Source of the DNA: Escherichia phage vB_Ec-M-J
Sequence record: OQ718158.1
Length of the DNA: 64,000 nucleotides
Reading direction: 5' to 3' (one strand)
This document shows, piece after piece, positions 42,999 to 62,484 of this stretch (the stretch's first letter is position 1; every line of letters begins with the position of its first letter). A program made the position numbers and the translations under genes. The notes beneath the pieces were generated by a model. It saw only the letters and a list, made by a program, of their open reading frames with translations, did no database searches and was not told the DNA's origin.

Positions 42999-45900
42999 TT
43001 ATTTAACTTCTAATAGATTTTTAATGTCAGTACCACTTATTTGCAAACTATCGGAGTAAACAGATAGTTCGATTGGATAACTGTTAACACTATAACGTTT
43101 TAGTAAATTAACTTTACCTAAGTTCAAGCCATTAAATGAATATGTCACATTCTCTTTAAAGTCGTGTTCTGCACTATACATTACCCCACAGAGTAAGTTA
43201 TTTGCAAAACGTACTTCAACTTTTTCAAAACCAAGAGAAATAATATCATTCATACTTGCACCAGCACCAGATAGAACATTATTAGTAACACTATATGGAC
43301 TAACTGAATCTGGTTGTGAAACATAAGTAGTATTTTCTTCACTGATAGCAGTAATGTTAGTTACTGTTCCACCAACTACACCAATATATGTATCACTAAC
43401 TAGTGGATATGCATATTCCCATACCCCTTCAGCATTCAGTACTGGTTGAATAATACCAACATCATACTCGAACACGTTAATTTCCACACTATCAGTCATT
43501 TTGGTTCTCACTAACTCACTAAGAACACCTGCACCAGTAATTGGTAAGTTATATCCGTTATCAATGGTAACACCATCAACTTCAAATATCTCGTTAGACA
43601 CTACCCAAACATCAACGTCATCTGGTGTAATTCCATCATTATAAGAACCACCATATAGTGTTGTGTCGTAGAATACTTCATAGTTCATTGCGTCGATAGC
43701 ATAGTTTCTATTTGTTTCATACAACTTAACACCATCAACCAAGAATTCTGGATCAGAAAAGGTTCTAATACGAACGATGTTCAATGCTAGAGGTATTGCT
43801 GGTTCATTCTGTTGTTGTTTAGTGATGTTATCATAACGAAGTACAACTCCAGTACTATCTAGTAGTTCTACAGTTCCGTTCGCAGTGTTTCTTACTGTGT
43901 ACAAGGTTGGTGTGGTGTCAGTTTTGATTTTTGATACACTCAAGATGGTTTCCCATGCATTGTTTTGGTATCTCACGTAATCTTCACCATCAGTTGTGAA
44001 TATCATAACCTTATCACCATCAGATAGGGTATTGTCAATTACTTCAGCTTCTGTATCACTAACAATTGATTTTATTTTATAGAAGTATTTTTCATCATAC
44101 TTACTGTATGATTTACTAATATCATTTTCAATCTTAGCGTAAGAAGGAATACTAACAATTGCTTCTGTTGTTTTATAAGGGTTGATGATAACCATACCTT
44201 CAGTTTTATATCTACTATTGTCTCTCAATTGAACTAGTGAAACACTATTGAATCCATAACCATCAACTGTGAAGCGAATCTGACCAATCTTTCTTCCTGA
44301 TGGGTTAATATCAGAAATGTCGATTATGTACGGATCTACTTCGTCACCTTCAACTTCCCATTTTAACTCGGAAGTTTGTGATTCAAGTGCTAGGTTATCA
44401 AATGCATTCATATCATCGTAGTACTTAGCATCGGTGATGCTATCTAGGATGTGCTGATAATCACTGTACATTGGGTTATTTCTATCAAGAGGTAAGTCAT
44501 CAAGATTTATTTCTGCCAATTGAACTAGTTGACCGTCAGTTATGAATTTGTCTTCCATGAAATCATCAATGCTTTGGTCATCTGGGATACTCTCGTATAC
44601 ACCATTAACATTAACATAAACATATTTTCGTGGCATCATAGTAAATGCATGAATATCAATAGGCATTCTACTTAATATTTCTTCAGCCTTTTCATAATGG
44701 TCGGTAGCATCTTTGTCATACAAACCACGCATACCAGACAATACATGAATTGCGTCATTGTAGAATCGTTGATTTCCATCTTCATCTACATGGCGATATG
44801 AATAAACACCATATTCAACTTCAAGTATAATTCTAACTTCATCATCAGTTGCAGTAGTATTGTTTTCTTTAATTAAAGAAACATACTTTTTATACAACTC
44901 ACTACTAACTTCAAAGTAACCAAAGTTATAATCAGTACTGGATGCATAACCAAACGGTAGTCTGGTACTTGGATTATCATCATAGGTTAACCCACTAAAT
45001 CCACATCCAACCTCATCATGAATTACTTCATCATCTGCACCTGTGTACAATTTCAAACGGTTAGAGAGTGTGTTATACTGAACATAATGATTTACGTCAT
45101 TAAACATTTCATTTTGTGTTGATTCTTTATATACACGATTCAACGTTTCTGTGAATTCTGCGGTTGCTACCAAATCATCTGCATGGTCTGCATACCATTG
45201 GTTAACACCGTAAGCAATCCCTAGAGTTACGTTCAATTCTGGGTAATACAATTGCATCTGATAAGCAACCAATAGGTCGAAATCTTCATCACTGTATTCT
45301 GGGAATGTATATTTGTAACGTTGTAATTCAAAATTACTAACAACATCTTGTGCATTAGATTGATATTTCTTATTCACTTCTTCCAATACATCAACACTTG
45401 CCAAATTATCATTTGGTTTACATTGAGTGTTGTCGTAGTGCATGATAACATCAATTTCTTGGAAACGGCGATTAGGTGTTACGAAATCACTTGGCAATTC
45501 ACCAACTTGCTCCCAACGTTGAGTTACCTCATTGAATTGAGCATATTCATAATCCCAAATGTCTTTTTCCGTTTTAACCCAAGTCCCATCTGCAAATATA
45601 TAGCCATTAGGATCTAAATCATTACACAAACCTTTAATTAAATCATCATCTGAAGTTTTCTGTTCAATCTGGGAACGAATCTTAGTTCTATATGGTTTAA
45701 CTTCTTCAAAGTACTCAACGATTTGATTAATCAAGTTGTCGTTGGAATAGTTCTGTACTAATGATTGTTCTAAACCTACAATATAAATGTAAGATGTTTT
45801 GAATACCCAATCAACAACGCTTTGTTCTACGTGAACATACTTAACCATATCAAACACAATTTCACTCTGATGTAAGTCGAATGAGTTCTTCAATAAAGCT

Positions 45901-48900
45901 AGTGCTTTACGAACGTTAATCTCACGATTACTCAACGAACCATTAGCATCACGAACTGTATAGTCAGCGTATAACATATCATTCAATTCAACTGTACTAT
46001 TTTCACGACCAATTGCTTTCCAGTAAACTGAATCACGTGATTGTGCTTTAATGTACAATGTCCAGATGCCATCAACATCTGTAATTCTGATAATGTCACC
46101 AACTTGATAGTTCTTAGTGTTTGCATCTTCTAGGCTGGATTCTTGTGTATATGCAGTATTTTTATCGTAGCCAATATCATACCAATCTGCTAGTGACCAG
46201 TACTGGGTCATGTCCAATGAAGTTCCTAGTGCTTCAACATAGTCTGATTGTTTAATCATTTTCTGTTGACCTTCACCACGGTTTTCCAATGTAATGGTAA
46301 CCACACTACCAGCACTTGATGGACTATTCATTAGATGAATATAACCATTAGCATCAATATGCACAAAATATACAGAGCTAGTTGATAGTGGGTTAGGTAA
46401 TACACCACTAGTACTTACTAGTACTGCGTCGTTTTCTTTGAACTTGTCACTTTCAGGTGCAATGACTAATTCACTATTGTAAGTTAGTACACGATATGAT
46501 ACTTCATTCGGGTTAACTTCAGTAGTTTTAACATTAAACACTTCGTCCATTAGAACAGTGTTAGTTGTTATATTCTGTGAGCGATAATAGTTATTTGCAC
46601 TTTCTACAAAGTTTCTACGAGCTTCAATTACATCTTGGAACCAAGTCTTATTAGAACCTAAACCGTTTGGTACTAAAGGATATAGTAAATCAATAACAGT
46701 TCCTGATTCAGTAGTTTCTTGACCAATCATAGAATTCCACATAGAAGTCCAGATTGATGGATTGAAGTTATAGCTATCACCTTCTTTACATAATTGATAC
46801 TGGTCATGTTTAATAACTTCAGTATTATCCATGTAATAAGAAACAGTTAAAATACTTGTGTCATCGTTGACTTCAAATTGCATATTACTTAGAATGAACG
46901 AGCTTTCATTGATTGGTGCAAACCAAGGAATGTTAAGCTGTGCTGGTTCTTTAATAATACGAGCAATATCAGTACAAGATTTAGTTCTGGAATGCAATGG
47001 TGGTACATAGATTGTATCACGAACCCAGAAATAGTATTTTGTAACATAAGTATCAGTTGTGCTATCATATTCTAAGAACGTACTATAATTATCTTCCAAT
47101 GCGGTTCCGCTTGGTAGGTACATAGTGTTGTTTTTATTTTTGTTAGCAACGTCTTTGCAGTATTTGTCCCAGTTATATGGTTCAACTGGTGAACATACCC
47201 ATTCAAGAACATCAACAGTACTGTGCGGTAGCAATCTGCCCCAGTTATAACGTTTATATTCATTTGTTGCATCAACATCCACATTACCATCAGCATCATA
47301 GATTGCACGAGTGTAATCTAAGTAGAAAGCAGTGCTGGTGTTCCACCAAACCTGACCAACTTTATCAGCACCCCATGCTTGAATCAATTCACCATTGCTG
47401 TTGTATTGTGCTGGGTCAACTGGAGATGTGTAGGTAACGTTCTGCATCGCTGCACCAGGAATAACACCGTTGATTGGGTCAAACACGTTTAGGTACAACG
47501 CAGTAATGTTAGTACGCTCATCATATGTGGTTGGGCGGTCAAACAAAGTACTTTGTGGAGCTTTAAAACTATATTTTCTGTCAATGTATTCCTGACGCAT
47601 CTCTTCAGTACTGAATCGTGAAACATAACGATACAAGCGTGGGCGAGTATCAGGATCAGTGAAGTCAATAGTGATTGAAGTGTCAAACGGAACTACCATA
47701 ACTCTAGGGTCATTACCCGCAGTATAATATTGACTTTCTATAGTCAATGTATCTGGCATAAAGTTAGTTTCATCAACAAAGTAATAATAATCACCATCAT
47801 TTAGTGGGATATCATCACTTAGAGTTACTTTACAGAATTGTTCTGCATATACATCGGTATTTTCAATTGGAACGATAGAGAGCATCTCAACTTCAGTGTC
47901 TACTAGTTCGAAAATATTCCACAAATCATTACCATCTTTAAACATCCATACAGAATCTGGGATTTCACCACTGTTATTCATATAATTGATACGATCATTA
48001 TATGCAGTACTGAAATCTTTAGTAACGTATGAAATTTCATCTAGTGTTACAGGACCAATGTCTGGAAGTTGGATATTCTCACTTCTTCCACTACGCATTG
48101 GGAATGAAAACTTACCATTTGGACGAGTAATCCAGCGTGAGTCAACCCCTTGTTCACCGTAATAAACAATACCATTACCAGTACCATTTGATGTAGCATT
48201 AACATCAAACGAAACCATCTGTGGTTGTTGTTTAAATTGGTCATTGATTAGTTTAAATTGTAGATTTTTCTTACCATTGATATTACCATAAGTACCAATC
48301 TTAAATGCCCATTCCTGAAGTGCTTTATATTCATCAGTGTCGTAAGATTTAGAAACGCGTAGTACTTTTTCCATTACTTGGTTAGTACCTTTGTCATGAA
48401 TGAATCCTTTATAGAAATCAACACGACTAACATCACTACTAATCATACGTTGTAGATAATCACGAGTTTGATAGCCAATCAAGTGATTTGATAACTCTTG
48501 AAGCTGAACATCACTCACAGGAGTTTCACTATTATAATATAATTCAAAATCAGTTACTAATTTTTCAAATGATGGTAAAGTTCCTGCTTCTAGGATAATG
48601 AAACCAGGTGCTTGTAGGCGACCAGTCCATGACCCAGTAATGTAACCATACATTTTAATCAATTCTTGAATAGCACCATAAGTTGGTTGGTAAATGTAAT
48701 CACCAAAGATAGTTTTATCATCAAAAACAACTGCGTGTTCATATGAACTTAGGCTCAAACGAATCAACGCCATACGTTTTTGTGATTCAGTTGTAGTTCT
48801 CACTGTGAATACGTTACCGATACGCGAAGTTTCGATTTCATATTGACGGATACCTTGGTTTTCATCATCGAGTAGTGACCAAACACCACCACTATTCTGT

Positions 48901-51900
48901 GTAACAGATTGAACTGAACCAAAATCCGCACCAAATTTAGCATTAGCTGCACTTGGAGTACAGGAGATGAACTCACCAGTACTTAAATTATTCTGACTCC
49001 AAATAACAAAGTCTTTAGCAATAGTTGTCCAGTCTTGTTGAGTACCACTATCATTTACATCTTCAAAAATCCAGCCATGTTCTTTTAGATATTCACCATA
49101 TCCACAAATGAAAGTATAAACTTCTTGGTATGTATTGAATATTTTACCATATTCTAATGTACCTTCAGATTTCCATTCATTGTAATGAACAACAGTTCTG
49201 TCTTCCAATTTAAGAGTTACTTTTCTTCCATTTTTAACTGGAATTTTATATTTAAATTTAGCACCAACTAAATCATAACCATCAATTTGATATGCACTAC
49301 CATTCCAAGTAATTTTTACTGCACTCATTTGCTCATCGCGAATGTTATTAGAACGAACTAGACCGATAGTTTGGTTTTCTTGTGAAATCAAACCGAAAGA
49401 TTTAGCAGTGAATGTCAATTGGTCTGCTTTAGTAAAGCCACCAATTTTGTGAGCGACATTGACATAAGAAGAACGAACAACGTCACCGTATTTGGTGGTA
49501 ATGTTCTTATTCTGATACATCAAATAGTCACTAACAAACATTTGATAACCGATAGTACGGGTGTTTTTCTCACCATGTACTAATGTAGTACTGTCAAAGT
49601 TTAGACGCTTACGGGTTTCACCATAAAGGAACTGTGAACCATCAGTATAAACTGGTTTAAGGTTATCATTACGGGTATCCCAGTAATAGTTTGCAAACTG
49701 TGCTGGTTTTGCTTTGTATAGAAGAAGCATTTGGTCATAAGCAAACATCGCAGTGTTCATGTAAGTGAATTCCATGTCACCCATGTCACCATAAGACCAC
49801 GGTTCTGCACGATGATCTAAATTACCACTAACAAGACCTAAAACTTCAGGTGCAATATACTCAACTTCACAAATATCAATACCAGTACTGGTTTTCTCGC
49901 CAGTCTTAGTGATTTTAAATGGCTGTACACCGAAACGCTTGTATTTGTCATATTGACCACGGCGTTCACCTGACAAAATAGTACCAGTACTGCTATCACC
50001 GATAGTACCATCAATATCCCACAATCCACTTGGGACCAAATCACCATTTTCATTCATTACTAGTGCTTCATACACATAAACAACATCACCCTCACGTTCA
50101 CCAACTTGAACTGCGGTTGGTTCGTATTCTTGGTTCCACCAAGTAGGACGTTGAGAGAAGCCCATCATTTCCCACGGATGGGTTGCTGGACGATATGTGC
50201 CATATTGGTCAGTATAGATTGCACGCCATGAACCACGAGCAGGAATTTCAGTACGTTGACCATCAACAACATAATAACTACCAGTATAGTTCCAAGTTCT
50301 CCAGTTATTTGCATCATAATCATGAGTACTGTTACTAATGCCATTGGTTGCTGTGAAGTTAATGTAACCACGTAGTAATAGAGTTTTCTTTTCTTCTGCA
50401 CTATAATCAGTACCAGTGAAATATGGAGTTGGGAATAGGTCTTCACTGTTTAGTACTGGTTTATAATCAATATCCTTGAAAGTAAGATCAATACTATTAA
50501 AGATACGATTTTCCAATTCAAAAACTACGTCATCCATTTTATCAACACCATTGATAACACGGTATGCTTTTGAAATAATACCAGTATGACTGATATTATA
50601 ACAGCTAGATTTACTACCAGCAGTTAAGAATGTTGCTTTTTGTGGTGTATAAGCTTGCAAAATACCCAAGAACTGTGGAGTTGGTGGGACAAATGCACGA
50701 ATAAACCCAGCAGTGCTTGCAACGTTGTCATAGTAGAATGGGAATGTACTATCACGTCCCATATTAATAGCTGTTAGAATCGCATCTACGATGTTTGATG
50801 CACTATTACCAAGAAAAGCACTTGGGTCTTCTTCATACAAACGAAGCATTTGAGTGTTGAACTTGTTAATGAAGCGGAAGTATTCTGCTTGCATAAACAT
50901 GATTGATTCAAACAAATCAATATCTTCATTAGCGGTATGTGCCATTAGTGGTAACATGGACGCTTCGTTTTGAATAATTTTAGTGCCTACACCATTATTA
51001 ACCAAACCAGCAGCCAAACGTTCTTCGTAATTGTTAAAGTCATCAGCAGAACCAGATGTAATATTCTTTTGAATAATATCTTGGAAGTGCAGGGTGTAAT
51101 CACCTTGGTTGATGTATTCAATGTTTGAATTATATGGGTTATTTTGTAGATTAATTGGAACTTCATATGCACCCAACTCTTTATTAGGAGTGATAGTGCT
51201 ACTATAAGTTCTGATTTGTACAACAGAATCTTCATCCAAATCAACAGAGCTATCAATTGTAATACTTTGTACTTGATTATTAACTACAGTTTTTGTGTAT
51301 TCTTTTATTTCCACACCATCAACAACTAGTTCGATAATATCATCAGAATTATCTAGTACTTTTTGTGCCAATTCAAATGTATGATTGTACTTAACGCTTT
51401 GTACCCCATCACCAACGATAACATGCCAATCAAGATATGTTTCACGTTCTGCTTTGTAATATTGATAAGTTCTGTCAACTTCAATTACATAAGCATACAT
51501 TCCTTCAACTGGGTCTTTGAAACTTTCCATGTCATAAACAGTACTGAACACGCGGAACATTACTGTACGTTCAACCTGTGGAGTTTGTTTAACATATTGT
51601 TTGGAGTATTCAGTACTACGAACCCAATCAGTTTCTAGGTTCATTGTATTACCTTCACCAATTACGTTATAGTAATATAGTCCATCAATTTCAACTTCCA
51701 CACCCAAATGCTCGTAAGTATAACGAGTTGATTGTAGGAAATTCTCATATGTGTAATAATTGTAATCACCTAGTTCAATGTTATAACCATAAACGCTATC
51801 AGTTGCATAATTATAGTTAATTTTAAAACCAAATAGTGAAGAACCAGTAAAAGTACTTGATGGATAGGTAGTAGTGTTGTTTAGTTTAACACCATTACGG

Positions 51901-53000
51901 TCATACAATTGGAATTGTGGAAATACGTTCACAGAAGTTTTAGACTGTGCTTGAATCCAATGAGAACCGTCCCAATACATGGAACTGTTACCAAATTCAT
52001 TACCTTTGATAATAAGAACTACGTCACCATCTTGTGGTTCACCACTCGGACGGCTTTCAGATTCTTCGTCTGGGTCTAATGCTAGACCATACACACGTGT
52101 TCCATCTTGCATACGTTTAACATATACTTTATAAATTCGGTTGTTTTCACCATTGTTACCAATACTGGTGAAAAGAATACGCATACCATCTTGTGGAATA
52201 ATACCATCAATACGTATACCGCTGTTAATATCTTTTTGTACGATATCTTCAGGTTTAATAATATCAGAGAACAAATCAACTGTCCCACGGAATTTAGTAC
52301 CGTAGTTCATTAGTTCGATATTTTTATTGTATTCGATAATTGGTGCACGAGCACGAACAAAACGGGAATCTTGCATTAGTTCTTCAGTTAGGATAGTACC
52401 ATCTTCTAAAGTTTCACCTAATGTGTACCAGAAGTTTTGTAGTGACCAAGTGTTACCATTTTCTGCACCACGTTCCATTACAATATAATCTGGAGTTGTG
52501 ATATTATAGCTATTCTTGGAATCCCATAGGTATGAACTGTAGTTGTTCATTTTATTTGGGTTAATTGGTGGGGTCCATGAATAGAACTTACCATTAAACA
52601 AACGGCTTTCATTTTCGGTTAGTGCACCGTAATGATTCATATAGCCAACTAGATCATCATAAAATTGAATTGAACGAATGCTGGAGTTATCATTTCTTGA
52701 GACATACGCAGTGGACAACTGATATAGTTGACGTGCGACTGTTGACTCGTGTAAGAAGATGTTCCCTGCTGCTGCCGGAGAACCCATGTCACCAATGTAG
52801 CCGTCAACTAATTCGTTTTCAGCCGGATTAAACCATTGTTGGATAACATCATCACTGACTTTCTGAATATCTTCTAAGCCTTGCATCCACTCAGGCAATC
52901 TTTTTATGAAAAGCTTCTTCTGTACTGCTTCAGCCATCTGTGTAGGTTGAAACTTAAAATTATTAGTCATTTTTGGACTCCATATAATTCGTTCATTCAT
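42999..53000 (-). CDS. giant virion protein (3333 aa); probable baseplate/fibre protein in the gp7 position
   Basis: Uninterrupted 10-kb ORF directly downstream of gp25-like and gp6-like genes; Y/N/W/T-rich beta-type composition. ATG 53000 lacks a Shine-Dalgarno; in-frame ATG 52970 has GGAG. Confidence 0.75.
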   Translation of the reverse strand: MNERIIWSPKMTNNFKFQPTQMAEAVQKKLFIKRLPEWMQGLEDIQKVSDDVIQQWFNPAENELVDGYIGDMGSPAAAGNIFLHESTVARQLYQLSTAYVSRNDNSSIRSIQFYDDLVGYMNHYGALTENESRLFNGKFYSWTPPINPNKMNNYSSYLWDSKNSYNITTPDYIVMERGAENGNTWSLQNFWYTLGETLEDGTILTEELMQDSRFVRARAPIIEYNKNIELMNYGTKFRGTVDLFSDIIKPEDIVQKDINSGIRIDGIIPQDGMRILFTSIGNNGENNRIYKVYVKRMQDGTRVYGLALDPDEESESRPSGEPQDGDVVLIIKGNEFGNSSMYWDGSHWIQAQSKTSVNVFPQFQLYDRNGVKLNNTTTYPSSTFTGSSLFGFKINYNYATDSVYGYNIELGDYNYYTYENFLQSTRYTYEHLGVEVEIDGLYYYNVIGEGNTMNLETDWVRSTEYSKQYVKQTPQVERTVMFRVFSTVYDMESFKDPVEGMYAYVIEVDRTYQYYKAERETYLDWHVIVGDGVQSVKYNHTFELAQKVLDNSDDIIELVVDGVEIKEYTKTVVNNQVQSITIDSSVDLDEDSVVQIRTYSSTITPNKELGAYEVPINLQNNPYNSNIEYINQGDYTLHFQDIIQKNITSGSADDFNNYEERLAAGLVNNGVGTKIIQNEASMLPLMAHTANEDIDLFESIMFMQAEYFRFINKFNTQMLRLYEEDPSAFLGNSASNIVDAILTAINMGRDSTFPFYYDNVASTAGFIRAFVPPTPQFLGILQAYTPQKATFLTAGSKSSCYNISHTGIISKAYRVINGVDKMDDVVFELENRIFNSIDLTFKDIDYKPVLNSEDLFPTPYFTGTDYSAEEKKTLLLRGYINFTATNGISNSTHDYDANNWRTWNYTGSYYVVDGQRTEIPARGSWRAIYTDQYGTYRPATHPWEMMGFSQRPTWWNQEYEPTAVQVGEREGDVVYVYEALVMNENGDLVPSGLWDIDGTIGDSSTGTILSGERRGQYDKYKRFGVQPFKITKTGEKTSTGIDICEVEYIAPEVLGLVSGNLDHRAEPWSYGDMGDMEFTYMNTAMFAYDQMLLLYKAKPAQFANYYWDTRNDNLKPVYTDGSQFLYGETRKRLNFDSTTLVHGEKNTRTIGYQMFVSDYLMYQNKNITTKYGDVVRSSYVNVAHKIGGFTKADQLTFTAKSFGLISQENQTIGLVRSNNIRDEQMSAVKITWNGSAYQIDGYDLVGAKFKYKIPVKNGRKVTLKLEDRTVVHYNEWKSEGTLEYGKIFNTYQEVYTFICGYGEYLKEHGWIFEDVNDSGTQQDWTTIAKDFVIWSQNNLSTGEFISCTPSAANAKFGADFGSVQSVTQNSGGVWSLLDDENQGIRQYEIETSRIGNVFTVRTTTESQKRMALIRLSLSSYEHAVVFDDKTIFGDYIYQPTYGAIQELIKMYGYITGSWTGRLQAPGFIILEAGTLPSFEKLVTDFELYYNSETPVSDVQLQELSNHLIGYQTRDYLQRMISSDVSRVDFYKGFIHDKGTNQVMEKVLRVSKSYDTDEYKALQEWAFKIGTYGNINGKKNLQFKLINDQFKQQPQMVSFDVNATSNGTGNGIVYYGEQGVDSRWITRPNGKFSFPMRSGRSENIQLPDIGPVTLDEISYVTKDFSTAYNDRINYMNNSGEIPDSVWMFKDGNDLWNIFELVDTEVEMLSIVPIENTDVYAEQFCKVTLSDDIPLNDGDYYYFVDETNFMPDTLTIESQYYTAGNDPRVMVVPFDTSITIDFTDPDTRPRLYRYVSRFSTEEMRQEYIDRKYSFKAPQSTLFDRPTTYDERTNITALYLNVFDPINGVIPGAAMQNVTYTSPVDPAQYNSNGELIQAWGADKVGQVWWNTSTAFYLDYTRAIYDADGNVDVDATNEYKRYNWGRLLPHSTVDVLEWVCSPVEPYNWDKYCKDVANKNKNNTMYLPSGTALEDNYSTFLEYDSTTDTYVTKYYFWVRDTIYVPPLHSRTKSCTDIARIIKEPAQLNIPWFAPINESSFILSNMQFEVNDDTSILTVSYYMDNTEVIKHDQYQLCKEGDSYNFNPSIWTSMWNSMIGQETTESGTVIDLLYPLVPNGLGSNKTWFQDVIEARRNFVESANNYYRSQNITTNTVLMDEVFNVKTTEVNPNEVSYRVLTYNSELVIAPESDKFKENDAVLVSTSGVLPNPLSTSSVYFVHIDANGYIHLMNSPSSAGSVVTITLENRGEGQQKMIKQSDYVEALGTSLDMTQYWSLADWYDIGYDKNTAYTQESSLEDANTKNYQVGDIIRITDVDGIWTLYIKAQSRDSVYWKAIGRENSTVELNDMLYADYTVRDANGSLSNREINVRKALALLKNSFDLHQSEIVFDMVKYVHVEQSVVDWVFKTSYIYIVGLEQSLVQNYSNDNLINQIVEYFEEVKPYRTKIRSQIEQKTSDDDLIKGLCNDLDPNGYIFADGTWVKTEKDIWDYEYAQFNEVTQRWEQVGELPSDFVTPNRRFQEIDVIMHYDNTQCKPNDNLASVDVLEEVNKKYQSNAQDVVSNFELQRYKYTFPEYSDEDFDLLVAYQMQLYYPELNVTLGIAYGVNQWYADHADDLVATAEFTETLNRVYKESTQNEMFNDVNHYVQYNTLSNRLKLYTGADDEVIHDEVGCGFSGLTYDDNPSTRLPFGYASSTDYNFGYFEVSSELYKKYVSLIKENNTTATDDEVRIILEVEYGVYSYRHVDEDGNQRFYNDAIHVLSGMRGLYDKDATDHYEKAEEILSRMPIDIHAFTMMPRKYVYVNVNGVYESIPDDQSIDDFMEDKFITDGQLVQLAEINLDDLPLDRNNPMYSDYQHILDSITDAKYYDDMNAFDNLALESQTSELKWEVEGDEVDPYIIDISDINPSGRKIGQIRFTVDGYGFNSVSLVQLRDNSRYKTEGMVIINPYKTTEAIVSIPSYAKIENDISKSYSKYDEKYFYKIKSIVSDTEAEVIDNTLSDGDKVMIFTTDGEDYVRYQNNAWETILSVSKIKTDTTPTLYTVRNTANGTVELLDSTGVVLRYDNITKQQQNEPAIPLALNIVRIRTFSDPEFLVDGVKLYETNRNYAIDAMNYEVFYDTTLYGGSYNDGITPDDVDVWVVSNEIFEVDGVTIDNGYNLPITGAGVLSELVRTKMTDSVEINVFEYDVGIIQPVLNAEGVWEYAYPLVSDTYIGVVGGTVTNITAISEENTTYVSQPDSVSPYSVTNNVLSGAGASMNDIISLGFEKVEVRFANNLLCGVMYSAEHDFKENVTYSFNGLNLGKVNLLKRYSVNSYPIELSVYSDSLQISGTDIKNLLEVK

Positions 53001-53017
53001 TTGATTTATTTATGATA

Positions 53018-53042
53018 TAAAAAAGACGTTCCGAAGAACGCC
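53018..53042 (-). terminator. rho-independent terminator with UUCG tetraloop (minus strand)
   Basis: Minus-strand ggcgttc-ttcg-gaacgtc followed by tttttt, between the gp6-like stop and the giant gene start. Confidence 0.65.
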
Positions 53043-53050
53043 TTAATGTG

Positions 53051-56583: not shown

Positions 56584-56610
56584 AGAAAAGCACCCCGAAG
56601 AGTGCTTTTA
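56584..56610 (-). terminator. hairpin with flanking A/T runs (putative terminator or attenuator)
   Basis: agcac-cccgaaga-gtgct stem-loop followed on the minus strand by ttttcttttt. Confidence 0.45.
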
Positions 56611-56614
56611 TAAT

Positions 56615-57010
56615 TTACAAAGATGATACAGAATAGGTAGCCATTCTGTTGTTACTTCTTGCATCAAAAACTATAGTTAATTCTTCAAGAGTATTGAGAA
56701 CAACATATTCAAGTACTATATCCATCTGATAACCGTACTCAATTCTTGATATTTGAAGTTTCTTTAAGCTTAAACGTGGGTCCAAGCTAATAATTCTACG
56801 GGCATCTGCTTCCAAAAGGTTGATTGTATTATAACCATCCAATTCAAATAGCAAATCCCACGCAATGAACCCATAATCAGCATCAAATGCACGTTCACCT
56901 TTTTTTGTATTGAAATGATTCATTAAATCCTGACGAACCAATTCACTGTCATACAATGTTTCAGTTCTTCCAACTACTGGAGTTGAAAAACCTTTAAAAA
57001 CAATTGCCAT
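56615..57010 (-). CDS. baseplate wedge protein (T4 gp25 / P2 gpW-like)
   Basis: 131 aa with AAGGAA Shine-Dalgarno; size and position fit gp25/gpW; ...GERAFDADYGF... resembles the gp25 ...GSRPFDPEFGC... core. Confidence 0.7.
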   Translation of the reverse strand: MAIVFKGFSTPVVGRTETLYDSELVRQDLMNHFNTKKGERAFDADYGFIAWDLLFELDGYNTINLLEADARRIISLDPRLSLKKLQISRIEYGYQMDIVLEYVVLNTLEELTIVFDARSNNRMATYSVSSL

Positions 57011-57025
57011 TATGTATTTCCTTTA

Positions 57026-57514
57026 TTATACGGATTCGACGATGCGAGCCATCTTCTCCGCTCTGGATGTGGTTTGTTTGTACCACGAACTATCACGCAT
57101 TTCTTTACCAGCAGTTTTATAATCACCACGACCGAGAGCAGCCATCGCTTTTTTGAAATTTAAAACTTTTGATTTACCCATTTGGAACACCATAAACCAC
57201 AATACACGCTGAACCTGTACTGGAGCAGTCATTCCAAATTGATCATAGATTGATTTTGCGTCATTGTAAGCGGTCTGAGCATCTTTTATAAGGAGAGCAT
57301 CAGCTTCTGCTTCAGTGAGTCCATTTTTGAAACTTTCACCCTTAAGTACAAGGTGACCGTAACCAATGGTATCAAGACCTAGACTGTCTTTATATACCCA
57401 AAACTTATCATTTTTAAAATAACCAAGTTTTTTCTGATACGCAATAGTACCTTCAAATTCTTTAATTTCTTTAAAAAATTGTTCGTCGGTATTTTTGATT
57501 TCCCATTTACTCAT
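57026..57514 (-). CDS. endolysin, T4-lysozyme-type (GH24)
   Basis: 162 aa; EFEGT...KD..G..TIGYGH catalytic region and C-terminal ...MVFQMG...W..QT..RA... as in T4 lysozyme; GAGGAA Shine-Dalgarno. Confidence 0.85.
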   Translation of the reverse strand: MSKWEIKNTDEQFFKEIKEFEGTIAYQKKLGYFKNDKFWVYKDSLGLDTIGYGHLVLKGESFKNGLTEAEADALLIKDAQTAYNDAKSIYDQFGMTAPVQVQRVLWFMVFQMGKSKVLNFKKAMAALGRGDYKTAGKEMRDSSWYKQTTSRAEKMARIVESV

Positions 57515-57551
57515 AAAGATTTCCTCATTATTATTTATAGTACTGAAATAT

Positions 57552-60215
57552 TTATTGACATGCCTCTAATCTACGTGCCATTAATTCAGCACGGCGTGTA
57601 GTTTGACGATACCAAGCTGAATTTCGAATTTGAGCAGCAGCTTGCTTGTAGTTACCTTTAGCCATTTCAGATAGCATTGACTTAAATTTCATTACACCAC
57701 CTTTACCCATCTGGAATACCATTTGACATAGAACTTGTTGTGCCATGTAAGGTGTTTTCATCTTATAAGAAGCGTAAATGGATTTTGCGTCATATATAGC
57801 CTTACTACTATCACGCACCAACATATCATTGGCTTCCTGTTCGGTAATCCCACCAGAGAAGTTTTCACCACCAACAATCAAGTGACCGTAACCAATAGTT
57901 GGGAATCCACGACTATCCAAATATCTCCAAAATTTGCCATTACGGTAATATCCTTTAGCTTGTTGATACGCCATTGTTCCTTCATATTCTTTCAATTCAG
58001 AAATAAATTGTGAATCACCCGGAACAACTTTCCAATCAATTGCAGTCTTATCAACATTACCCACATTGTATGATTCTTGTGCAGTAGGTACTGGAGTACC
58101 ACCTGAACGTTGTGTTCTTCTACGACGAGGGACATGACGAGAACCACGTTGAGAATACCCAGTACCGATAGTTTTAATTTTAGTTGTTACAACTAATTCA
58201 TCACTATCAACAGAAGGTTGAACAACAGCTTTCGGTGCTGCTTGGTTCGTTGCTTGTCCTGCAATTAATGTTTTATTTCCCGCTTCAGAACCTGTACCAG
58301 TCTGGGATGCATAGAATAATCCAGGGTCAACTGAACCACTAAATCCTAGTACGTTGGCAGAGGTAACTCTTATTTCAAATTGAATAACACCATTAGCTTT
58401 ACCGATAACTTGACCTTTTTGAACAACGTCTTTATTGAGCAAATCTGATTGAATATTATAAAATACAGATTTATATCCAGACTTATGTTGAACCAATAAA
58501 GCACCATTAGTGATAACAACTACACCGCCATCTGGAGCTACAACATCACCCTTGCACTGTATTTCCCAGCCACTTCTATCAGCTTTACCACCACCACTAG
58601 TCGGGACACCTTTCCCCCAATAACCGTATTGGCGAATGGTTCCACTACACGGCATGAACATATGAAGACCTTCATATGTAATGCTATAACCAGTCATACC
58701 AGGATCAGAAGTCATTAAATCTTGTGTTTGAACTTGTTCTGTTTCTGTTGTATAATTTACATATTGAATTGCTTCAGTGTCCTGTACTGGAGCTAAAGTT
58801 GGAGCTACATCATTAGCAGGTTCAGGTTGAACTGGGGATTCACTATTCCCACTACCACCACCTTGACGTGGAGGTTCAACAGTACTGCCGTGATTCTCAG
58901 CATCAACCCAAGCCGATATATCATGTATATGATCATTCAAGCCAGCAGATGGGGTGCGGAAGTTTGGTGCATTAAATTCAGCAGTACCACTATTACCACC
59001 ACTGTTAACAGTAAGAGTTTGACCACCACCACTAATAATAGCTGATGAAGAACCAATAAGATTAGCACTGGTAGCAGCAGAGATTGACGCATTAGAACCA
59101 GCAGTTATATCAGTACTGCTACCACTTTGCATACGTAATGAAGCTGCTGTTACTAAACGTAAATCTGCTCCAGCGTTAATAACAACCTGACCACCAACTT
59201 TAGCATCCAATGCACCAACCAAATCTAGTTTAGTGTTTGCACCAACACGAGCATTGAAGTCTGCTCCACTTTCAATATTATATGAGCGTCCAGCAACCAT
59301 GTTAATATCTTGACCTGCACGAATGTTAATATTCTTATCACAGTGCATTTCAATATCACCTTCACCAGTGAATTTAATACGTGCAGTACCATCACGGTTA
59401 ATTAAAAGAACATCACCAGAGGCTTCAGATAACAACAACTGTGCACCACTACGTGTTTTAATTACAACGCCTTCATTTTTACGAGAACCAACACGAGTAT
59501 CGTTCACTGGGTTATTGAATTGGGTATCCTGATAACCATCTGGATCTTGATCCCAAGTAGGTGCTGTTAATTCTTCTTCTGTGTAACCATCATCAATAAT
59601 AAAACTGTTACCACGAGGTGAGGAAAGACCATAAACAGTACTGGTGGTCTGGCGAGTACTACTACGGTTAGCAACACCCGCTTCCTCATCATAAAGTAAG
59701 TTTTGTTTTTTCAGACCTGCAATAATTGGAACGTTTGCATATTTGTCTTGAGTACTGGTAGAAATTGTATTACGGTCATAATCAGTTACGGGTAATGGCA
59801 TATCAGTACCTGCATAATTGCTTATTTCAGTAGCCATCCCAGGAACCATCGTATTCATACGTTGGTCATAAACACAACCAATCCAATACGCTTGGAATGT
59901 TCTTGCTTGTGCAAATATAACAACAACAGTACATCCGACATCAGGTGGAACCGCCCAAAAACCATATCCCTTTGGATATTGACCATAAGCATCAGCACTT
60001 GGTATCCCTGGAGTTTTACCAGCGAATGGAGACATGTATGATGCTTCAATCCATGACTCTTTTGAATTTTTATCACTTTGTGAACCTTGAATCCACACTT
60101 TTAGCTTACCGGATTTAGTTGGGTCACGGTTATCCATCACGGTTGCTAGTTGTGGATACGAAGGGTCAAAACGACCCAACTGTTGTTGGGCATATTTCTT
60201 ACTTGTATCTGCCAT
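57552..60215 (-). CDS. baseplate central spike / tail-associated lysin (gp5-like) with C-terminal GH24 lysozyme domain
   Basis: N-terminal OB-fold region ...VMDNRDPTKSGKLKVWIQG...FWAVPPDVGCTVVVIF... resembles the gp5/VgrG N-domain; central Gly/Ala/Ser-rich beta-helix-like repeats; C-terminal ~160 aa paralogous to endolysin 57026-57514. Confidence 0.8.
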   Translation of the reverse strand: MADTSKKYAQQQLGRFDPSYPQLATVMDNRDPTKSGKLKVWIQGSQSDKNSKESWIEASYMSPFAGKTPGIPSADAYGQYPKGYGFWAVPPDVGCTVVVIFAQARTFQAYWIGCVYDQRMNTMVPGMATEISNYAGTDMPLPVTDYDRNTISTSTQDKYANVPIIAGLKKQNLLYDEEAGVANRSSTRQTTSTVYGLSSPRGNSFIIDDGYTEEELTAPTWDQDPDGYQDTQFNNPVNDTRVGSRKNEGVVIKTRSGAQLLLSEASGDVLLINRDGTARIKFTGEGDIEMHCDKNINIRAGQDINMVAGRSYNIESGADFNARVGANTKLDLVGALDAKVGGQVVINAGADLRLVTAASLRMQSGSSTDITAGSNASISAATSANLIGSSSAIISGGGQTLTVNSGGNSGTAEFNAPNFRTPSAGLNDHIHDISAWVDAENHGSTVEPPRQGGGSGNSESPVQPEPANDVAPTLAPVQDTEAIQYVNYTTETEQVQTQDLMTSDPGMTGYSITYEGLHMFMPCSGTIRQYGYWGKGVPTSGGGKADRSGWEIQCKGDVVAPDGGVVVITNGALLVQHKSGYKSVFYNIQSDLLNKDVVQKGQVIGKANGVIQFEIRVTSANVLGFSGSVDPGLFYASQTGTGSEAGNKTLIAGQATNQAAPKAVVQPSVDSDELVVTTKIKTIGTGYSQRGSRHVPRRRRTQRSGGTPVPTAQESYNVGNVDKTAIDWKVVPGDSQFISELKEYEGTMAYQQAKGYYRNGKFWRYLDSRGFPTIGYGHLIVGGENFSGGITEQEANDMLVRDSSKAIYDAKSIYASYKMKTPYMAQQVLCQMVFQMGKGGVMKFKSMLSEMAKGNYKQAAAQIRNSAWYRQTTRRAELMARRLEACQ

Positions 60216-60228
60216 CTTAAATTATTCC

Positions 60229-62484
60229 TTATTCAATTATACTATCGTGACGTTTGAGTGCACGAATTACAATTGCAGCCTGAATTTGTTGTGTAAATGA
60301 ACCACCTGCACCAAAATCATGAACAATTTTGTTAACACGATATACAGTTTGGTTAAATGTAGTTGGTGTATTAATATCAAGAACACCAGTATTATCATTT
60401 ATAGAAACCACAGGTTGTAATTTCAATAAAAGATATGCTTCAGATGTAATATAGTTAGCAACATGGTAATCTTCGGGATTAATTTCCATATCTTCCCCAT
60501 TAATTACCTGTTCAAGATATTGGATATATGAATAATCACTCCAACCCAACCAGAATGGGTCACCAACAACACGCATATCCAATTTACACAAGAATGGACG
60601 ATTGTAATAGTTGTCACGAATTTTACGGCGATCCATTTCATATGTGCTACTGTTATCGTTCAATGATGCAGACAATGTTGTTTCATTATTTGTTGCTTCA
60701 GTCGGCATTGTAAACACTTCACCATATCGATGACCAATTCCATCGGTTCCACCGTCATTTTCTTCATATGTGGTTACATAATCTTCAATATACTGTGGTA
60801 GAACGTTTACTTGATAGTTATTATAACGATCCTGTTCTTCAGCATTACCAACTTGCATTTGTTCTTTTGCTAAAGTTTCAACTTGATTGAGTAGTTGTTC
60901 CTGTGCCTGTGTTAACATACCACCAAGATCACGGGTGACGCGTAAATCACTTGTTTTTGCCCATGCATCTGGTATACTGTTGTACTGAACCCCTTGGATA
61001 TTCAATTCTTGGGAGGTGTGAGTACCAGAGTGGTTAGCAACATCCTGTATCGGTCCAGGGTTACGAGTTGTAGCTACAAAGAATTGCTGATCAAACTTCA
61101 AATCAAGGTCTAGAATCTCACTATTGAGTCCACTAAACTGATAATTGTAAGTTTTCATGTTAATCTTTGGTTTTTGGTCATTTGGGTCTACATATTTCTC
61201 GGCATTTTCAAAGAAATACTCAAATGTAAAGTTTTCTGGCTGTAAATCTGATTCATGAACAATATCACCAATTTTAAAACGAACAATATAGAAAACAACT
61301 TTATAAACTGATGTATTTCTGTAATTATCAAATCCAACATATTGTTTAAGCGGGATTATATTAACAAATTGACGAACACTAGTACTATCATCAGCCTGTA
61401 CAGTACAGGTATCTATTACGTCATCGATAATTCGAGAAATTGGAGTACTTGGATTCCATGAAAAGTTTTTAGAACCCTGTGCACCACTTTTTGTAGCTCC
61501 AGCTTCTGCCATCTGTTTAGAATCATAGTTTATAAACAAATCCTGTAAATCTGGGGCAACTTTAAATTCAAAGAACTTCCCTTCTGCTAACTCACCAAAT
61601 TTATAACGCAAATAACCATATTGCTGGTCTGCCATTTGATTCAATTTATCTTCCAAATCAAAACAAAAATCACCAAAGTTTTCTGCTGTGCAGTTAAATG
61701 GTTCTTTAAGAGTCCATTCCACATTATCCACTAGAGCCGCACGGTTATGAACAAGACTCATAGAATACATCATAGTACTACCACTTTGTGATGCACTAGC
61801 GGTAACACTGTTAATCTTCACGGACCATCTACGAGTTGTTTCTGGTATAGTTTCAGGTACACCATTAGTATTGAATCCAATAAATTTCAATTCTAATATC
61901 AAAGGTAAGTCCATGAACTTATGATACCTTAGTTTATTACTTAAAGAAATTAGTTCATCATATAAACTCATACTATTATTTTCTGAAAGGTTCAGTACTG
62001 CTGTGTTGAAGCAATAGTTGGTTGTCATCCCTGGAGTTGAAGGACCAGCTTGCGTCATCTGAACACTTGTGATATTATACTTTCCAGTTACACCACTTTC
62101 AGAGATGACATGACGTTGAACTTCAGCATCTGGGTAAAGCCAGAAGTTTTTGAAATCATCCTTGTCTAATGCGAAAAGGGAAAAGTGCCAAGTTGGATTG
62201 TCATACTTTAACAATTTATTGTCATAAGGAATAACAAACTCACTTAGATCCAAGTCTTCATACACTTGGTCAACGCTTGCACTTTGCTTTGGTAAAGACT
62301 GTACGTTACTAACCTTAGCTTTAAAATTGTTTTTTACTTTTTCAAGATCATTTTGCAAAGTATTAGCAGTGGCTTTTAAGCTTTCAATAGTACTTGTTGC
62401 AGTTTCTTTTGCTGCCTTTGCAGAACTTGTGATGTTTGAAATATCATTTTTAAAATTATCAACAGAACTTTGTAAATCTGCCAT
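60229..62484 (-). CDS. hypothetical baseplate-module protein (751 aa) with N-terminal coiled coil
   Basis: GGAG Shine-Dalgarno; immediately upstream of the gp5-like gene. Confidence 0.65.
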   Translation of the reverse strand: MADLQSSVDNFKNDISNITSSAKAAKETATSTIESLKATANTLQNDLEKVKNNFKAKVSNVQSLPKQSASVDQVYEDLDLSEFVIPYDNKLLKYDNPTWHFSLFALDKDDFKNFWLYPDAEVQRHVISESGVTGKYNITSVQMTQAGPSTPGMTTNYCFNTAVLNLSENNSMSLYDELISLSNKLRYHKFMDLPLILELKFIGFNTNGVPETIPETTRRWSVKINSVTASASQSGSTMMYSMSLVHNRAALVDNVEWTLKEPFNCTAENFGDFCFDLEDKLNQMADQQYGYLRYKFGELAEGKFFEFKVAPDLQDLFINYDSKQMAEAGATKSGAQGSKNFSWNPSTPISRIIDDVIDTCTVQADDSTSVRQFVNIIPLKQYVGFDNYRNTSVYKVVFYIVRFKIGDIVHESDLQPENFTFEYFFENAEKYVDPNDQKPKINMKTYNYQFSGLNSEILDLDLKFDQQFFVATTRNPGPIQDVANHSGTHTSQELNIQGVQYNSIPDAWAKTSDLRVTRDLGGMLTQAQEQLLNQVETLAKEQMQVGNAEEQDRYNNYQVNVLPQYIEDYVTTYEENDGGTDGIGHRYGEVFTMPTEATNNETTLSASLNDNSSTYEMDRRKIRDNYYNRPFLCKLDMRVVGDPFWLGWSDYSYIQYLEQVINGEDMEINPEDYHVANYITSEAYLLLKLQPVVSINDNTGVLDINTPTTFNQTVYRVNKIVHDFGAGGSFTQQIQAAIVIRALKRHDSIIE

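What the first reader, a model, noticed from the sequence alone, without database searches (positions are those of the whole stretch)
57026..60215. gp5-like spike with a C-terminal lysozyme domain, next to a paralogous free endolysin
The 887-aa protein has a gp5/VgrG-like N-terminal OB domain and a beta-helix-like middle, and ends with a ~160-aa GH24 lysozyme domain (...FPTIGYGH...MVFQMG...WYRQT.RRAE...). That domain is clearly paralogous to the stand-alone 162-aa endolysin encoded immediately downstream (...LDTIGYGH...MVFQMG...WYKQTTSRAE...). Unlike T4 gp5, the lysozyme is at the C-terminus rather than inserted before the beta-helix. The adjacency suggests recent domain duplication between the entry and exit lysins.
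Basis: seen in the sequence. Interest (0 to 1): 0.4.

Follow-up and report, generated by a model that had tools for sequence, protein, structure and literature searches.

The report
Jumbo-phage tail spike with lysozyme twin
The tail spike of a known giant E. coli phage ends in a lysozyme, and the next gene encodes an old free-standing copy of that lysozyme; this pairing was already published for sister phages, so it is largely ordinary.

Summary
On the minus strand, an 887-aa ORF (57552-60215) and a 162-aa ORF (57026-57514) share a T4-type (GH24) lysozyme domain: 50% identity over 159 residues with no gaps, E 8e-57.

The window is an Asteriusvirus, a Rak2-like jumbo coliphage 99.6% identical to phage BF17. 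The three lysozymes and the odd spike architecture were described for RaK2 in 2013 and CBB in 2017. A 90%-identical ortholog of the small protein, LysUE1, was shown to be muralytic in 2025.

The "recent duplication" reading fails:
- Synonymous sites are saturated.
- The free copies form their own clade, whose subclades mirror those of the spike domains.
- The gene pair is present in every sampled lineage down to about 49% spike identity.

The "endolysin" label is unproven. These phages also carry a membrane-anchored LysM-GH24 paralog, predicted in the literature to be the endolysin. Virion proteomics for the small protein is mixed.

- An invariant HxH motif follows the beta-helix, as in the P2 gpV spike tip.
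- A degenerate, metal-site-less LytM domain sits between the helix and the lysozyme.
- A late-promoter motif lies just upstream of the free gene.

Verdict: largely already known, modest interest.

The parts
57552..60215 (-). 887-aa baseplate central spike: OB domain, beta-helix, HxH motif, linker, degenerate LytM domain, linker, GH24 lysozyme
   Evidence: [quoted passage not shown] Orthologs were detected in virions by MS: phAPEC6 gp241 (93% identical), CBB_240 and the Erwinia phage 96.3-kDa protein.
59868..60149 (-). N-terminal OB fold (residues 23-116), gp5/VgrG/gpV type
   Evidence: PF04717 Phage_base_V, E 7.9e-7, 29.8 bits against a cutoff of 23.8.
58941..59465 (-). Beta-helix region (about residues 251-425)
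   Evidence: PF10106 DUF2345, residues 278-329, E 2.9e-7. AF2 pLDDT is 85-92 over this stretch, with short repeated strands.
58923..58931 (-). HxH motif (H429-I-H431), a candidate iron-binding histidine cage of a gpV-type apex
   Evidence: Both histidines are invariant in 77 of 77 full-length homologs that reach down to 35% identity. The role of HxH in P2 gpV is from bioRxiv 10.1101/2023.02.25.529910. Metal binding is inferred, not shown.
58251..58688 (-). Degenerate LytM (M23-fold) domain, about residues 510-655, lacking the HxH zinc-ligand motif
57555..58040 (-). C-terminal GH24 lysozyme domain of the spike (residues 726-887); catalytic E745, D767, T773
58041..58250 (-). Linker 2 (residues 656-725) with the conserved GSxxxP motif and the basic run RHVPRRRRTQR
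   Evidence: Alignment. P696 is conserved in at least 90% of sequences. The stretch is basic, pI 10.2. pLDDT is low at residues 702-715. Function unknown.
57026..57514 (-). 162-aa free GH24 lysozyme; catalytic E21, D43, T49; no N-terminal hydrophobic segment
   Evidence: ORF; PF00959, 37.3 bits. It is 90% identical to LysUE1 of phage UE-S1, which was purified and lysed EDTA-treated cells (PMC12805682).
57532..57555 (-). Two late-promoter-like motifs (ATAAATA at 57549-57555, overlapping the spike stop codon; TATAAATA at 57532-57539), 35 and 18 nt upstream of the free lysozyme start
   Evidence: Sequence. Of the 12 ATAAATA sites in the window, 11 lie 7-59 nt upstream of a same-strand gene start. 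The stop-overlapping copy is conserved in all 12 phages compared. The CBB paper proposes ATAAATA as the late promoter.
56615..57010 (-). gp25-like baseplate wedge protein, the next gene downstream of the free lysozyme, with no ATAAATA motif or terminator-like site between them
   Evidence: PF04965 GPW_gp25, E 1.5e-8; PHROG 43.
56586..56609 (-). Intrinsic-terminator-like hairpin that closes the lysozyme-gp25 unit
   Evidence: A 10-bp stem followed by a T run, just after the gp25-like stop codon.

Best explanation
The 887-aa protein is the trimeric central spike of the contractile tail of a Rak2-like jumbo coliphage. Its core is a P2 gpV-like needle: an OB domain, a triple beta-helix and an HxH histidine cage. 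Unlike gpV, the chain continues for another 456 residues. First comes an acidic flexible linker, then a LytM-fold domain that has lost its zinc site, then a basic linker, then an intact T4-type lysozyme.

On sheath contraction the needle crosses the outer membrane and carries three tethered LytM-lysozyme modules into the periplasm. There the lysozyme cuts glycan strands locally so that the tube can pass. The dead LytM domain most likely binds peptidoglycan or positions or regulates the enzyme. This resembles an 'evolved VgrG' with a C-terminal effector more than it resembles T4 gp5.

The 162-aa protein is a soluble, leaderless, catalytically competent muramidase. It arose once, long ago, as a stand-alone copy of the spike's C-terminal domain. 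It has been inherited together with the baseplate module ever since.

The free gene has its own late-promoter-like motifs. No promoter motif or terminator separates it from the gp25-like gene downstream. Its most likely job is bulk wall degradation at lysis, alongside the membrane-anchored third paralog. That last step is the least certain.

Shown: the ORFs, the paralogy, the domain folds, the residue conservation and the old age of the duplication.
From the literature: virion presence of the spike, and in vitro activity of the small enzyme.
Inferred: iron binding, delivery into the periplasm, the role of the dead LytM domain, promoter use, and the stage at which the free enzyme acts.
For: Identity and context:
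- The window is 99.6% identical to Asteriusvirus BF17.
- The order gp53-like / 751 aa / spike / lysozyme / gp25 / gp6-like is conserved in four named genera (Asteriusvirus, Alcyoneusvirus, Mimasvirus, Eneladusvirus) and in the unclassified phages Munch and Hallingskeid.

Domains:
- Pfam.
- AF2 model, mean pLDDT 83.
- Family profile against PDB sequences.
- No histidine at the M23 HxH position in any of 85 homologs.
- H429 and H431 invariant in 77 of 77; HxH marks spike apex domains.
- Catalytic Glu and Asp kept in 84 of 85 spikes.

Virion presence of the spike.

Free copy:
- 50% identity, E 8e-57.
- Saturated dS.
- dN/dS about 0.055 for both copies against PBECO4.
- Free-copy clade at 99% bootstrap, with topology congruent to the spike-domain clade.
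- The pair is absent from six more distant lineages that still have the fused lysozyme: Vibrio phage 2.275.O, P0076, P0079, P0080, P0082, P0085. This points to the direction spike to free gene.
- The ortholog LysUE1, 90% identical, is muralytic.
- Late-promoter motifs and a terminator bracket the lysozyme-gp25 unit.
Against: - No experiment shows that the spike's lysozyme domain is active, or that it reaches the periplasm.
- The monomer model says nothing about the trimer. An HxH cage followed by 456 residues is atypical for an apex and could instead be a trimer clamp, as in tail fibres.
- The sub-model fold search found only LytM matches and nothing for the apex.
- Exit role of the free enzyme: it has no signal sequence, and no holin or spanin lies near it in the window.
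- The RaK2 authors found no T4-type holin. The literature names the TM-LysM-GH24 paralog as the endolysin.
- An 18.1-kDa ortholog of the free enzyme was detected in three Erwinia-phage virion preparations, with 1-2 peptides each.
- The direction of the duplication loses bootstrap support (53%) when the third paralog is added as an outgroup. One distant free copy (contig P0077) falls outside the main free-copy clade.
Confidence: 0.6

Rival explanations
1. The 162-aa lysozyme is not an exit enzyme. It is a low-copy baseplate or tail-tip component, or a baseplate assembly helper. It is made with gp25 and carried in the virion, perhaps docked on the spike's dead LytM domain, to add muralytic capacity at entry.
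For: - Its position between the spike and gp25 is fixed in every lineage that has it, including metagenomic ones.
- No ATAAATA motif or terminator lies between it and the gp25-like gene.
- An 18.1-kDa ortholog was detected by LC-MS/MS in all three Eneladusvirus virion preparations.
- A separate membrane-anchored GH24 paralog is available to serve as the endolysin.
- Its tree mirrors the baseplate-module tree.
Against: - It was not detected in phAPEC6 virions (62 proteins) or in CBB virions.
- In the Erwinia data it gave only 1, 2 and 1 peptides, against 7, 6 and 12 for the smaller gp25-like protein. Those preparations also contained non-structural proteins such as an acyl carrier protein, a DnaJ-like protein and scaffold.
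- The protein has no extra domain or extension that could anchor it.
- The spike already carries three lysozyme domains.
Confidence: 0.25
2. The pair reflects a recent tandem duplication, or ongoing gene conversion between entry and exit lysins.
For: The two genes are adjacent, and the amino-acid similarity is clear.
Against: - Third-codon-position identity is 41% and pS is 0.76, which is saturated.
- Free-to-spike identity within a genome (40-62%) is lower than between orthologs in different genera (means of 68% and 64%).
- The free copies are monophyletic at 99%.
- In RaK2, four unrelated ORFs separate the two genes.
Confidence: 0.02
3. The spike's C-terminal extension (LytM plus lysozyme) is a maturation or assembly module that is cleaved off, for example at the conserved GSxxxP / poly-Arg linker. 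The mature spike would then be a plain gpV-like needle ending at the HxH apex, and the released lysozyme would act as a soluble enzyme.
For: - In gpV-type spikes the HxH motif normally lies within about 15 residues of the C-terminus.
- There are conserved linker motifs, and a low-confidence basic stretch at residues 702-715.
- From general knowledge, not tested here: T4 gp5 and lactococcal Tal proteins are proteolytically processed.
Against: - The Erwinia phage table lists the ortholog under its full predicted mass (96.3 kDa) with up to 30% sequence coverage. The table does not say which gel slice or which part of the protein the peptides came from.
- phAPEC6 gp241 and CBB_240 were also found in virions. 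Which regions of these proteins the peptides cover is not reported.
- For the RaK2 virion proteins that were detected on gels, the authors reported masses close to prediction. The RaK2 spike itself was not detected.
Confidence: 0.1

Closest known systems
Rak2-like jumbo phage spike and lysozyme trio (RaK2 gp078/gp073/gp029; CBB_240/239/187; phAPEC6 gp241/gp242/gp293; UE-S1 LysUE1)
   Same: These are direct orthologs with the same gene order and the same domain order. RaK2 gp078 was described in 2013 as an unusually large baseplate lysozyme with a C-terminal lysozyme domain, whose lysozyme domain is 66% similar to that of gp073. CBB_238-240 were described in 2017. LysUE1 is 90% identical to the window's 162-aa protein and is muralytic.
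   Different: Nothing essential differs. Those papers left the regions flanking the helix as 'no database match'. In the papers read here, none reports the LytM fold or the HxH motif, and none dates the duplication.
T4 gp5 tail lysozyme and T4 e endolysin
   Same: Both have an OB domain, a triple beta-helix and a GH24 lysozyme in the central spike. Both phages also have a paralogous free GH24 enzyme. The catalytic Glu/Asp/Thr are conserved.
   Different: - In T4 the lysozyme lies between the OB domain and the helix, and the helix end is capped by the PAAR-like gp5.4.
- Here the lysozyme is C-terminal, after the helix, and an HxH motif replaces the need for a cap.
- A LytM-fold domain is added.
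- All three GH24 copies share a 13-residue or longer insert between the catalytic Glu and Asp.
- The free gene is adjacent to the spike gene; by my recollection it is not in T4.
P2 gpV / phi92 gp138 iron-loaded spikes
   Same: OB domain, beta-helix, then an invariant HxH motif.
   Different: In gpV the protein ends 12 residues after the motif. Here 456 residues follow it. Iron binding is untested.
Evolved VgrG proteins of type VI secretion, such as Vibrio cholerae VgrG-3 with a C-terminal peptidoglycan hydrolase (from general knowledge)
   Same: A needle protein that carries a wall-degrading effector domain after the beta-helix. The DUF2345 VgrG helix family matches.
   Different: There is no fused gp27-like N-terminal part. 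This is a phage virion protein rather than a secreted bacterial effector, and it has no immunity partner.
phi29 gp13 tail-tip enzyme (lysozyme plus LytM endopeptidase)
   Different: By my recollection, phi29 gp13 has the opposite domain order and an active M23 site. Here the zinc ligands are missing in all 85 homologs.
Degenerate LytM regulators: EnvC, NlpD, DipM, SpoIIQ
   Different: Those are cellular proteins that bind and activate or scaffold other wall enzymes. No partner is known here, and the domain sits inside a phage spike.

Membership tests
GH24 / T4-type phage lysozyme (PF00959) | Sequence match above the curated threshold | tested here: met
   Spike 41.6 bits and free protein 37.3 bits, against a cutoff of 22.3.
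GH24 / T4-type phage lysozyme (PF00959) | Catalytic Glu and Asp (T4L E11, D20) and the Thr26 position | tested here: met
   E745/D767/T773 and E21/D43/T49 in the alignment to T4L (T4L sequence from memory). Glu and Asp are kept in 84 of 85 spike homologs. The Thr position varies: T 59, D 19, S 4, and one each of N, I and V.
GH24 / T4-type phage lysozyme (PF00959) | T4-lysozyme fold | tested here: met
GH24 / T4-type phage lysozyme (PF00959) | Muramidase activity | not testable with these tools
   Literature only: LysUE1, 90% identical to the free protein, is muralytic on EDTA-treated cells. There are no data for the spike domain.
T4 gp5-type central spike | N-terminal OB fold (Phage_base_V) | tested here: met
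   PF04717, E 7.9e-7.
T4 gp5-type central spike | Lysozyme domain inserted between the OB fold and a C-terminal beta-helix | tested here: not met
   The helix is at about residues 251-425 and the lysozyme at 726-887.
T4 gp5-type central spike | Blunt helix end capped by a separate PAAR/gp5.4 protein | tested here: inconclusive
   No PAAR hit among the neighbouring proteins scanned. The whole genome was not scanned. The spike has its own HxH motif.
P2 gpV / phi92 gp138 spike with apex domain | OB fold followed by an intertwined beta-helix | tested here: met
   The trimeric state was not modelled.
P2 gpV / phi92 gp138 spike with apex domain | [quoted passage not shown] | tested here: inconclusive
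   The HxH is invariant in 77 of 77 homologs, but it lies 456 residues from the C-terminus. In gpV it lies 12 residues from the end.
P2 gpV / phi92 gp138 spike with apex domain | Iron ion bound by six histidines in the trimer | not testable with these tools
   Needs a trimer structure or metal analysis.
Peptidase M23 (active LytM metallopeptidases) | LytM fold | tested here: met
Peptidase M23 (active LytM metallopeptidases) | HxxxD and HxH zinc ligands | tested here: not met
   At the HLHFE position the window has VIQFE, and none of the 85 homologs has a histidine there. The HxxxD position reads RSGWE in the window and is variable across homologs. The Pfam score of 18.1 is below the cutoff of 28.7.
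Degenerate LytM regulators (EnvC/NlpD/DipM type) | LytM fold that lacks the metal ligands | tested here: met
Degenerate LytM regulators (EnvC/NlpD/DipM type) | Binds and activates a partner wall hydrolase | not testable with these tools
   No partner is known.
Canonical phage endolysin (claim made for the 162-aa protein) | Made late and acts from within; not a virion component | tested here: inconclusive
   Late-promoter-like motifs lie upstream. It was absent from the phAPEC6 and CBB virion MS, but 1-2 peptides were found in three Erwinia phage virion preparations.
Canonical phage endolysin (claim made for the 162-aa protein) | Genetic linkage to a holin or spanins, or its own export signal | tested here: not met
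   Its neighbours are the spike and gp25. It has no N-terminal hydrophobic segment. In Erwinia relatives the predicted o-spanin lies about 77 gene numbers away from the free-lysozyme ortholog (locus tags 00160 and 00237).
Canonical phage endolysin (claim made for the 162-aa protein) | Required for host lysis | not testable with these tools
   Needs a knockout.
Evolved VgrG | Fused gp27-like and gp5-like parts | tested here: not met
   The protein starts at the OB fold. No gp27-like domain was detected.
Evolved VgrG | Effector domain C-terminal to the beta-helix | tested here: met
   The LytM-fold and GH24 domains follow the DUF2345 helix.

The most novel reading that the evidence does not exclude
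The dead LytM domain in the spike may work like EnvC, NlpD or DipM. Once delivered into the periplasm at the needle tip, it would bind and switch on host cell-wall amidases, or dock and gate the phage's own GH24 lysozymes, fused and free. The phage would then open the wall at the entry site by hijacking the host's autolysin control, not only by bringing its own enzyme. A related point is that an HxH iron cage sits mid-chain, so the enzymatic cargo would hang from the needle tip.
Probability: 0.07. Interest if true: 0.75.

Novelty: already known. Interest (0 to 1): 0.27.

Why it matters
The pair is a clear natural example of one lysozyme fold serving in two or three roles within a single phage: fused to the tail needle, free, and membrane-anchored. 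The free enzyme is already being explored as an antibacterial (LysUE1).

The increments found here would matter mainly to people working on contractile injection systems. They make the published 'very unusual domain composition' of these spikes interpretable, and they suggest a phage counterpart of cargo-carrying VgrG needles. The increments are:
- a conserved but catalytically dead LytM domain;
- an invariant HxH motif in mid-chain;
- a single old duplication, probably from the spike to a free gene.

None of this changes a major concept unless the LytM domain proves to regulate host or phage wall enzymes.

Tried and rejected
1. Recent duplication or gene conversion. Rejected by codon analysis and by the trees.
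2. Rooting the duplication with the third paralog (phAPEC6 gp293). Support for placing the Vibrio spike domain outside both copies fell from 98% to about 53%. The direction of duplication therefore rests mostly on gene presence and absence.
3. The larger 43-taxon NJ tree left the deep nodes unresolved. One distant free copy (contig P0077) fell apart from the rest.
4. The sigma-70 promoter scan found 51 sites against 46.7 expected, so it was not informative.
5. Exact TATAAATA occurs only twice in the window, fewer than chance. Upstream of the free gene it is conserved only in the PBECO4/BF17 group and RaK2. The shorter ATAAATA was the informative motif.
6. The search for a PAAR-like cap among small neighbouring ORFs in PA5oct and RaK2 and near the BF17 hub found nothing.
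7. A fold search with the 415-730 sub-model, aimed at the apex and linker elements, returned only LytM matches.
I relied on the HMMER register and on the robust FE(I/V)R anchor instead.
9. NCBIfam gave no useful family, and PDB sequence search and Pfam found nothing for the 751-aa upstream protein.
10. pI does not separate the two copies; both are about 9.2-9.5.
11. No cryo-EM structure of a Rak2-like baseplate hub was found. The phiKp24 paper does not cover it.


Full report
**What is there**

On the minus strand the window has an 887-aa ORF (57552-60215), then after a 37-nt gap a 162-aa ORF (57026-57514). After that come a gp25-like gene (56615-57010), a gp6-like 1153-aa gene and a 3333-aa gene. 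Upstream lie a 751-aa gene and a gp53-like gene.

The region is 99.6% identical to Escherichia phage BF17. It is 84% identical in DNA to the PBECO4/phAPEC6 group, which belongs to the genus Asteriusvirus of the Rak2-like jumbo phages. Both ORFs match annotated genes there.

**Checking the observation**

BLASTP aligns spike residues 728-886 with residues 4-162 of the small protein. There are no gaps, identity is 50% and E is 8e-57.

Pfam finds Phage_base_V (23-116), the VgrG helix family DUF2345 (278-329) and Phage_lysozyme (765-882) in the spike. It finds Phage_lysozyme in the small protein.

The T4L catalytic Glu, Asp and Thr align with E745/D767/T773 in the spike and E21/D43/T49 in the small protein.

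- *A degenerate LytM domain at residues 510-655.*
  - Pfam Peptidase_M23 is only sub-threshold for the window protein (E 0.003), though it is recorded for several homologs.
  - A profile of this region from 22 homologs hits LasA (3e-6), SpoIIQ (3.9e-6) and DipM (4e-5) among PDB sequences.
  - At the position of the M23 HLHFE motif the window has VIQFE, and none of 85 full-length homologs has a histidine there. The HxxxD position is not conserved either.
  - The domain is therefore a conserved but metal-site-less LytM fold.
- *An invariant HxH motif right after the helix (H429-I-H431).* It is invariant in 77 of 77 homologs that reach down to 35% identity.
  - In P2 gpV and related spikes, HxH forms the iron-binding histidine cage of the apex. 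It is described as the one universally conserved feature of such spikes (bioRxiv 10.1101/2023.02.25.529910).
  - There the protein ends 12 residues after the motif. Here 456 residues follow.
  - The short PA5oct homolog (477 aa) has neither HxH nor a lysozyme.
- *Two linkers.* Residues 445-505 are acidic and proline-rich. Residues 656-725 are basic and carry a conserved GSxxxP motif and an RRRR run.

**Age and direction of the duplication**

- Within the window the two copies are 56% identical in DNA and 41% at third codon positions. pS is 0.76, so synonymous sites are saturated.
- Against PBECO4, dN/dS is about 0.055 for both copies, so both are under purifying selection.
- Across 12 phages of four named genera plus two unclassified phages, free copies average 68% identity to one another. 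Spike domains average 64%, and free against spike averages 51%.
- In an NJ tree with 300 bootstraps the free copies are monophyletic (99%). Their subclades match those of the spike domains. No free copy groups with the spike of its own genome.
- The pair is present in metagenomic relatives whose spikes are 49-52% identical (P0064, P0065, P0070, P0072) and in P0077 and P0078.
- In Vibrio phage 2.275.O and contigs P0076, P0079, P0080, P0082 and P0085, the spike has the fused lysozyme but is followed directly by gp25. The Vibrio phage record has no other GH24 match at all.
- The simplest reading is one old duplication of the spike's C-terminal domain into a separate gene, retained ever since.
- There are caveats. 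Rooting weakens when the third paralog is added. The P0077 free copy falls outside the main clade.
- In RaK2, four unrelated small ORFs now separate the two genes.
- 'Recent duplication' is not supported.

**Is the small protein the endolysin?**

Its ortholog LysUE1 is 90% identical and sits in the same position. It was purified and lysed EDTA-treated cells (PMC12805682). The enzyme is therefore active.

Several points stop that from making it the exit lysin:

- Rak2-like phages carry a third GH24 paralog (RaK2 ORF029, CBB_187, phAPEC6 gp293). It has an N-terminal transmembrane segment and a LysM domain. The CBB authors predicted it to be the endolysin and found it toxic on induction.
- Close relatives of the window phage have three GH24 loci per genome.
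- A 74-aa protein with two transmembrane segments, which looks like a holin, lies about 2 kb from gp293.
- The small protein has no leader sequence and no holin or spanin neighbour.

Virion proteomics is mixed. The small protein is absent from phAPEC6 and CBB virions, though their gp25 homologs were missed too. It was present with 1, 2 and 1 peptides in three Erwinia Eneladusvirus preparations. In the same preparations the gp25-like protein gave 7, 6 and 12 peptides, and some non-structural proteins were also seen.

**Transcription signals**

ATAAATA is the late-promoter consensus proposed for CBB. It occurs 12 times in the window, and 11 of those sites lie 7-59 nt upstream of a same-strand gene start.

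Two copies precede the free lysozyme. One overlaps the spike stop codon and is conserved in all 12 phages compared. None precedes the spike, the 751-aa gene, the gp53-like gene or the gp25-like gene.

A strong hairpin terminator follows gp25. The lysozyme and gp25 thus look like a unit with its own late promoter inside the baseplate operon. This fits higher expression than the three-copy spike, but it does not decide between the lysis and baseplate roles.

**Mechanism proposed**

The spike is a gpV-like needle that carries three tethered dead-LytM-plus-lysozyme modules. These would be delivered into the periplasm on contraction and cut the wall locally. In that respect it is closer to a cargo-carrying VgrG than to T4 gp5.

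The free enzyme is a soluble late muramidase. Most likely it helps lysis together with the anchored paralog. A low-copy virion role is the main rival.

Iron binding, delivery into the periplasm, the role of the LytM domain and the stage at which the free enzyme acts are all inferences.

**Novelty**

The RaK2 paper (2013) already listed the three lysozymes, reported 66% similarity between the gp073 and gp078 lysozyme domains, and noted the 'very unusual domain composition' of the 886-aa spike. The CBB paper (2017) described the gp25 / lysozyme / spike trio and the contrast with T4 gp5.

The finding as stated is therefore already known. The additions from this analysis are incremental:
- the LytM fold without a metal site;
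- the mid-chain HxH motif;
- the dating and probable direction of the duplication;
- the promoter layout.

A literature search for degenerate LytM domains in phage tails returned nothing relevant.

Noticed in passing
window 42999-53000 (-): A single 3333-aa ORF lies just downstream of the gp6-like gene. It has its own ATAAATA motif at 53007 and follows a terminator at 53023-53044. Orthologs of about 381 kDa are virion proteins in phAPEC6 (gp245) and in Erwinia phages.
   Followed up: partly
window, whole (12 sites: 2805, 3642, 6515, 7037, 18630, 34921, 34956, 53007, 56571, 57532, 57549, 63577): ATAAATA occurs 12 times, and 11 of the sites lie 7-59 nt upstream of a same-strand gene start in a window that is 95% coding. 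This is strong positional support for it being the late promoter of this phage. Exact TATAAATA occurs only twice, fewer than the 6.9 expected by chance.
   Followed up: partly
window 60229-62484 (-): The 751-aa protein between the gp53-like gene and the spike has no Pfam, NCBIfam or PDB-sequence match, although it is a virion protein in relatives (phAPEC6 gp240, CBB_241). It may be the gp27-like hub. Vibrio phage 2.275.O has no such gene at this position (L007).
   Followed up: partly
L015:27101-28027 (phAPEC6 gp293c; outside the window): This is the third GH24 paralog, with an N-terminal transmembrane segment and a LysM domain. It has an even longer insert between the catalytic Glu and Asp. 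It is 35% identical to the free copy and 31% to the spike domain. A 74-aa holin-like protein with two transmembrane segments (gp298c) and a 43-aa membrane protein (gp295c) lie nearby.
   Followed up: partly
L003:5842-7335 (RaK2): Four small ORFs with no family match, two on each strand, are inserted between the spike and the free lysozyme in RaK2/K64-1-type Klebsiella phages. A TATAAATA is retained 44 nt upstream of the lysozyme gene.
   Followed up: partly
spike homologs P0008-P0059 (Munch/Hallingskeid-like group); residue 773 of the window protein: In 19 of 85 spikes the residue equivalent to T4L Thr26 is Asp. In the members displayed, this comes with a short insertion after the GYGH motif. 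Four have Ser. The consequence for activity is unknown.
   Followed up: no
window 58116-58160 (-), spike residues 686-700: A conserved GS(R/K)xxP motif is followed by a run of four arginines in the linker before the lysozyme domain. It might be a processing or docking site, and dibasic runs are typical outer-membrane protease sites. This is pure speculation.
   Followed up: no
L018:6633-7145 (metagenomic contig carrying P0077): A 170-aa free lysozyme sits next to a distant spike (43% identical). It does not cluster with the other free copies. It may be an independent duplication or a long-branch artefact.
   Followed up: partly
L001:24222-25058 (BF17, beyond the window's end): A T4_baseplate (PF12322) hub protein, E 6.5e-24, lies beyond the late sigma factor and the SbcCD-like nuclease genes. 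The baseplate genes are therefore split into two blocks by replication and recombination genes.
   Followed up: no
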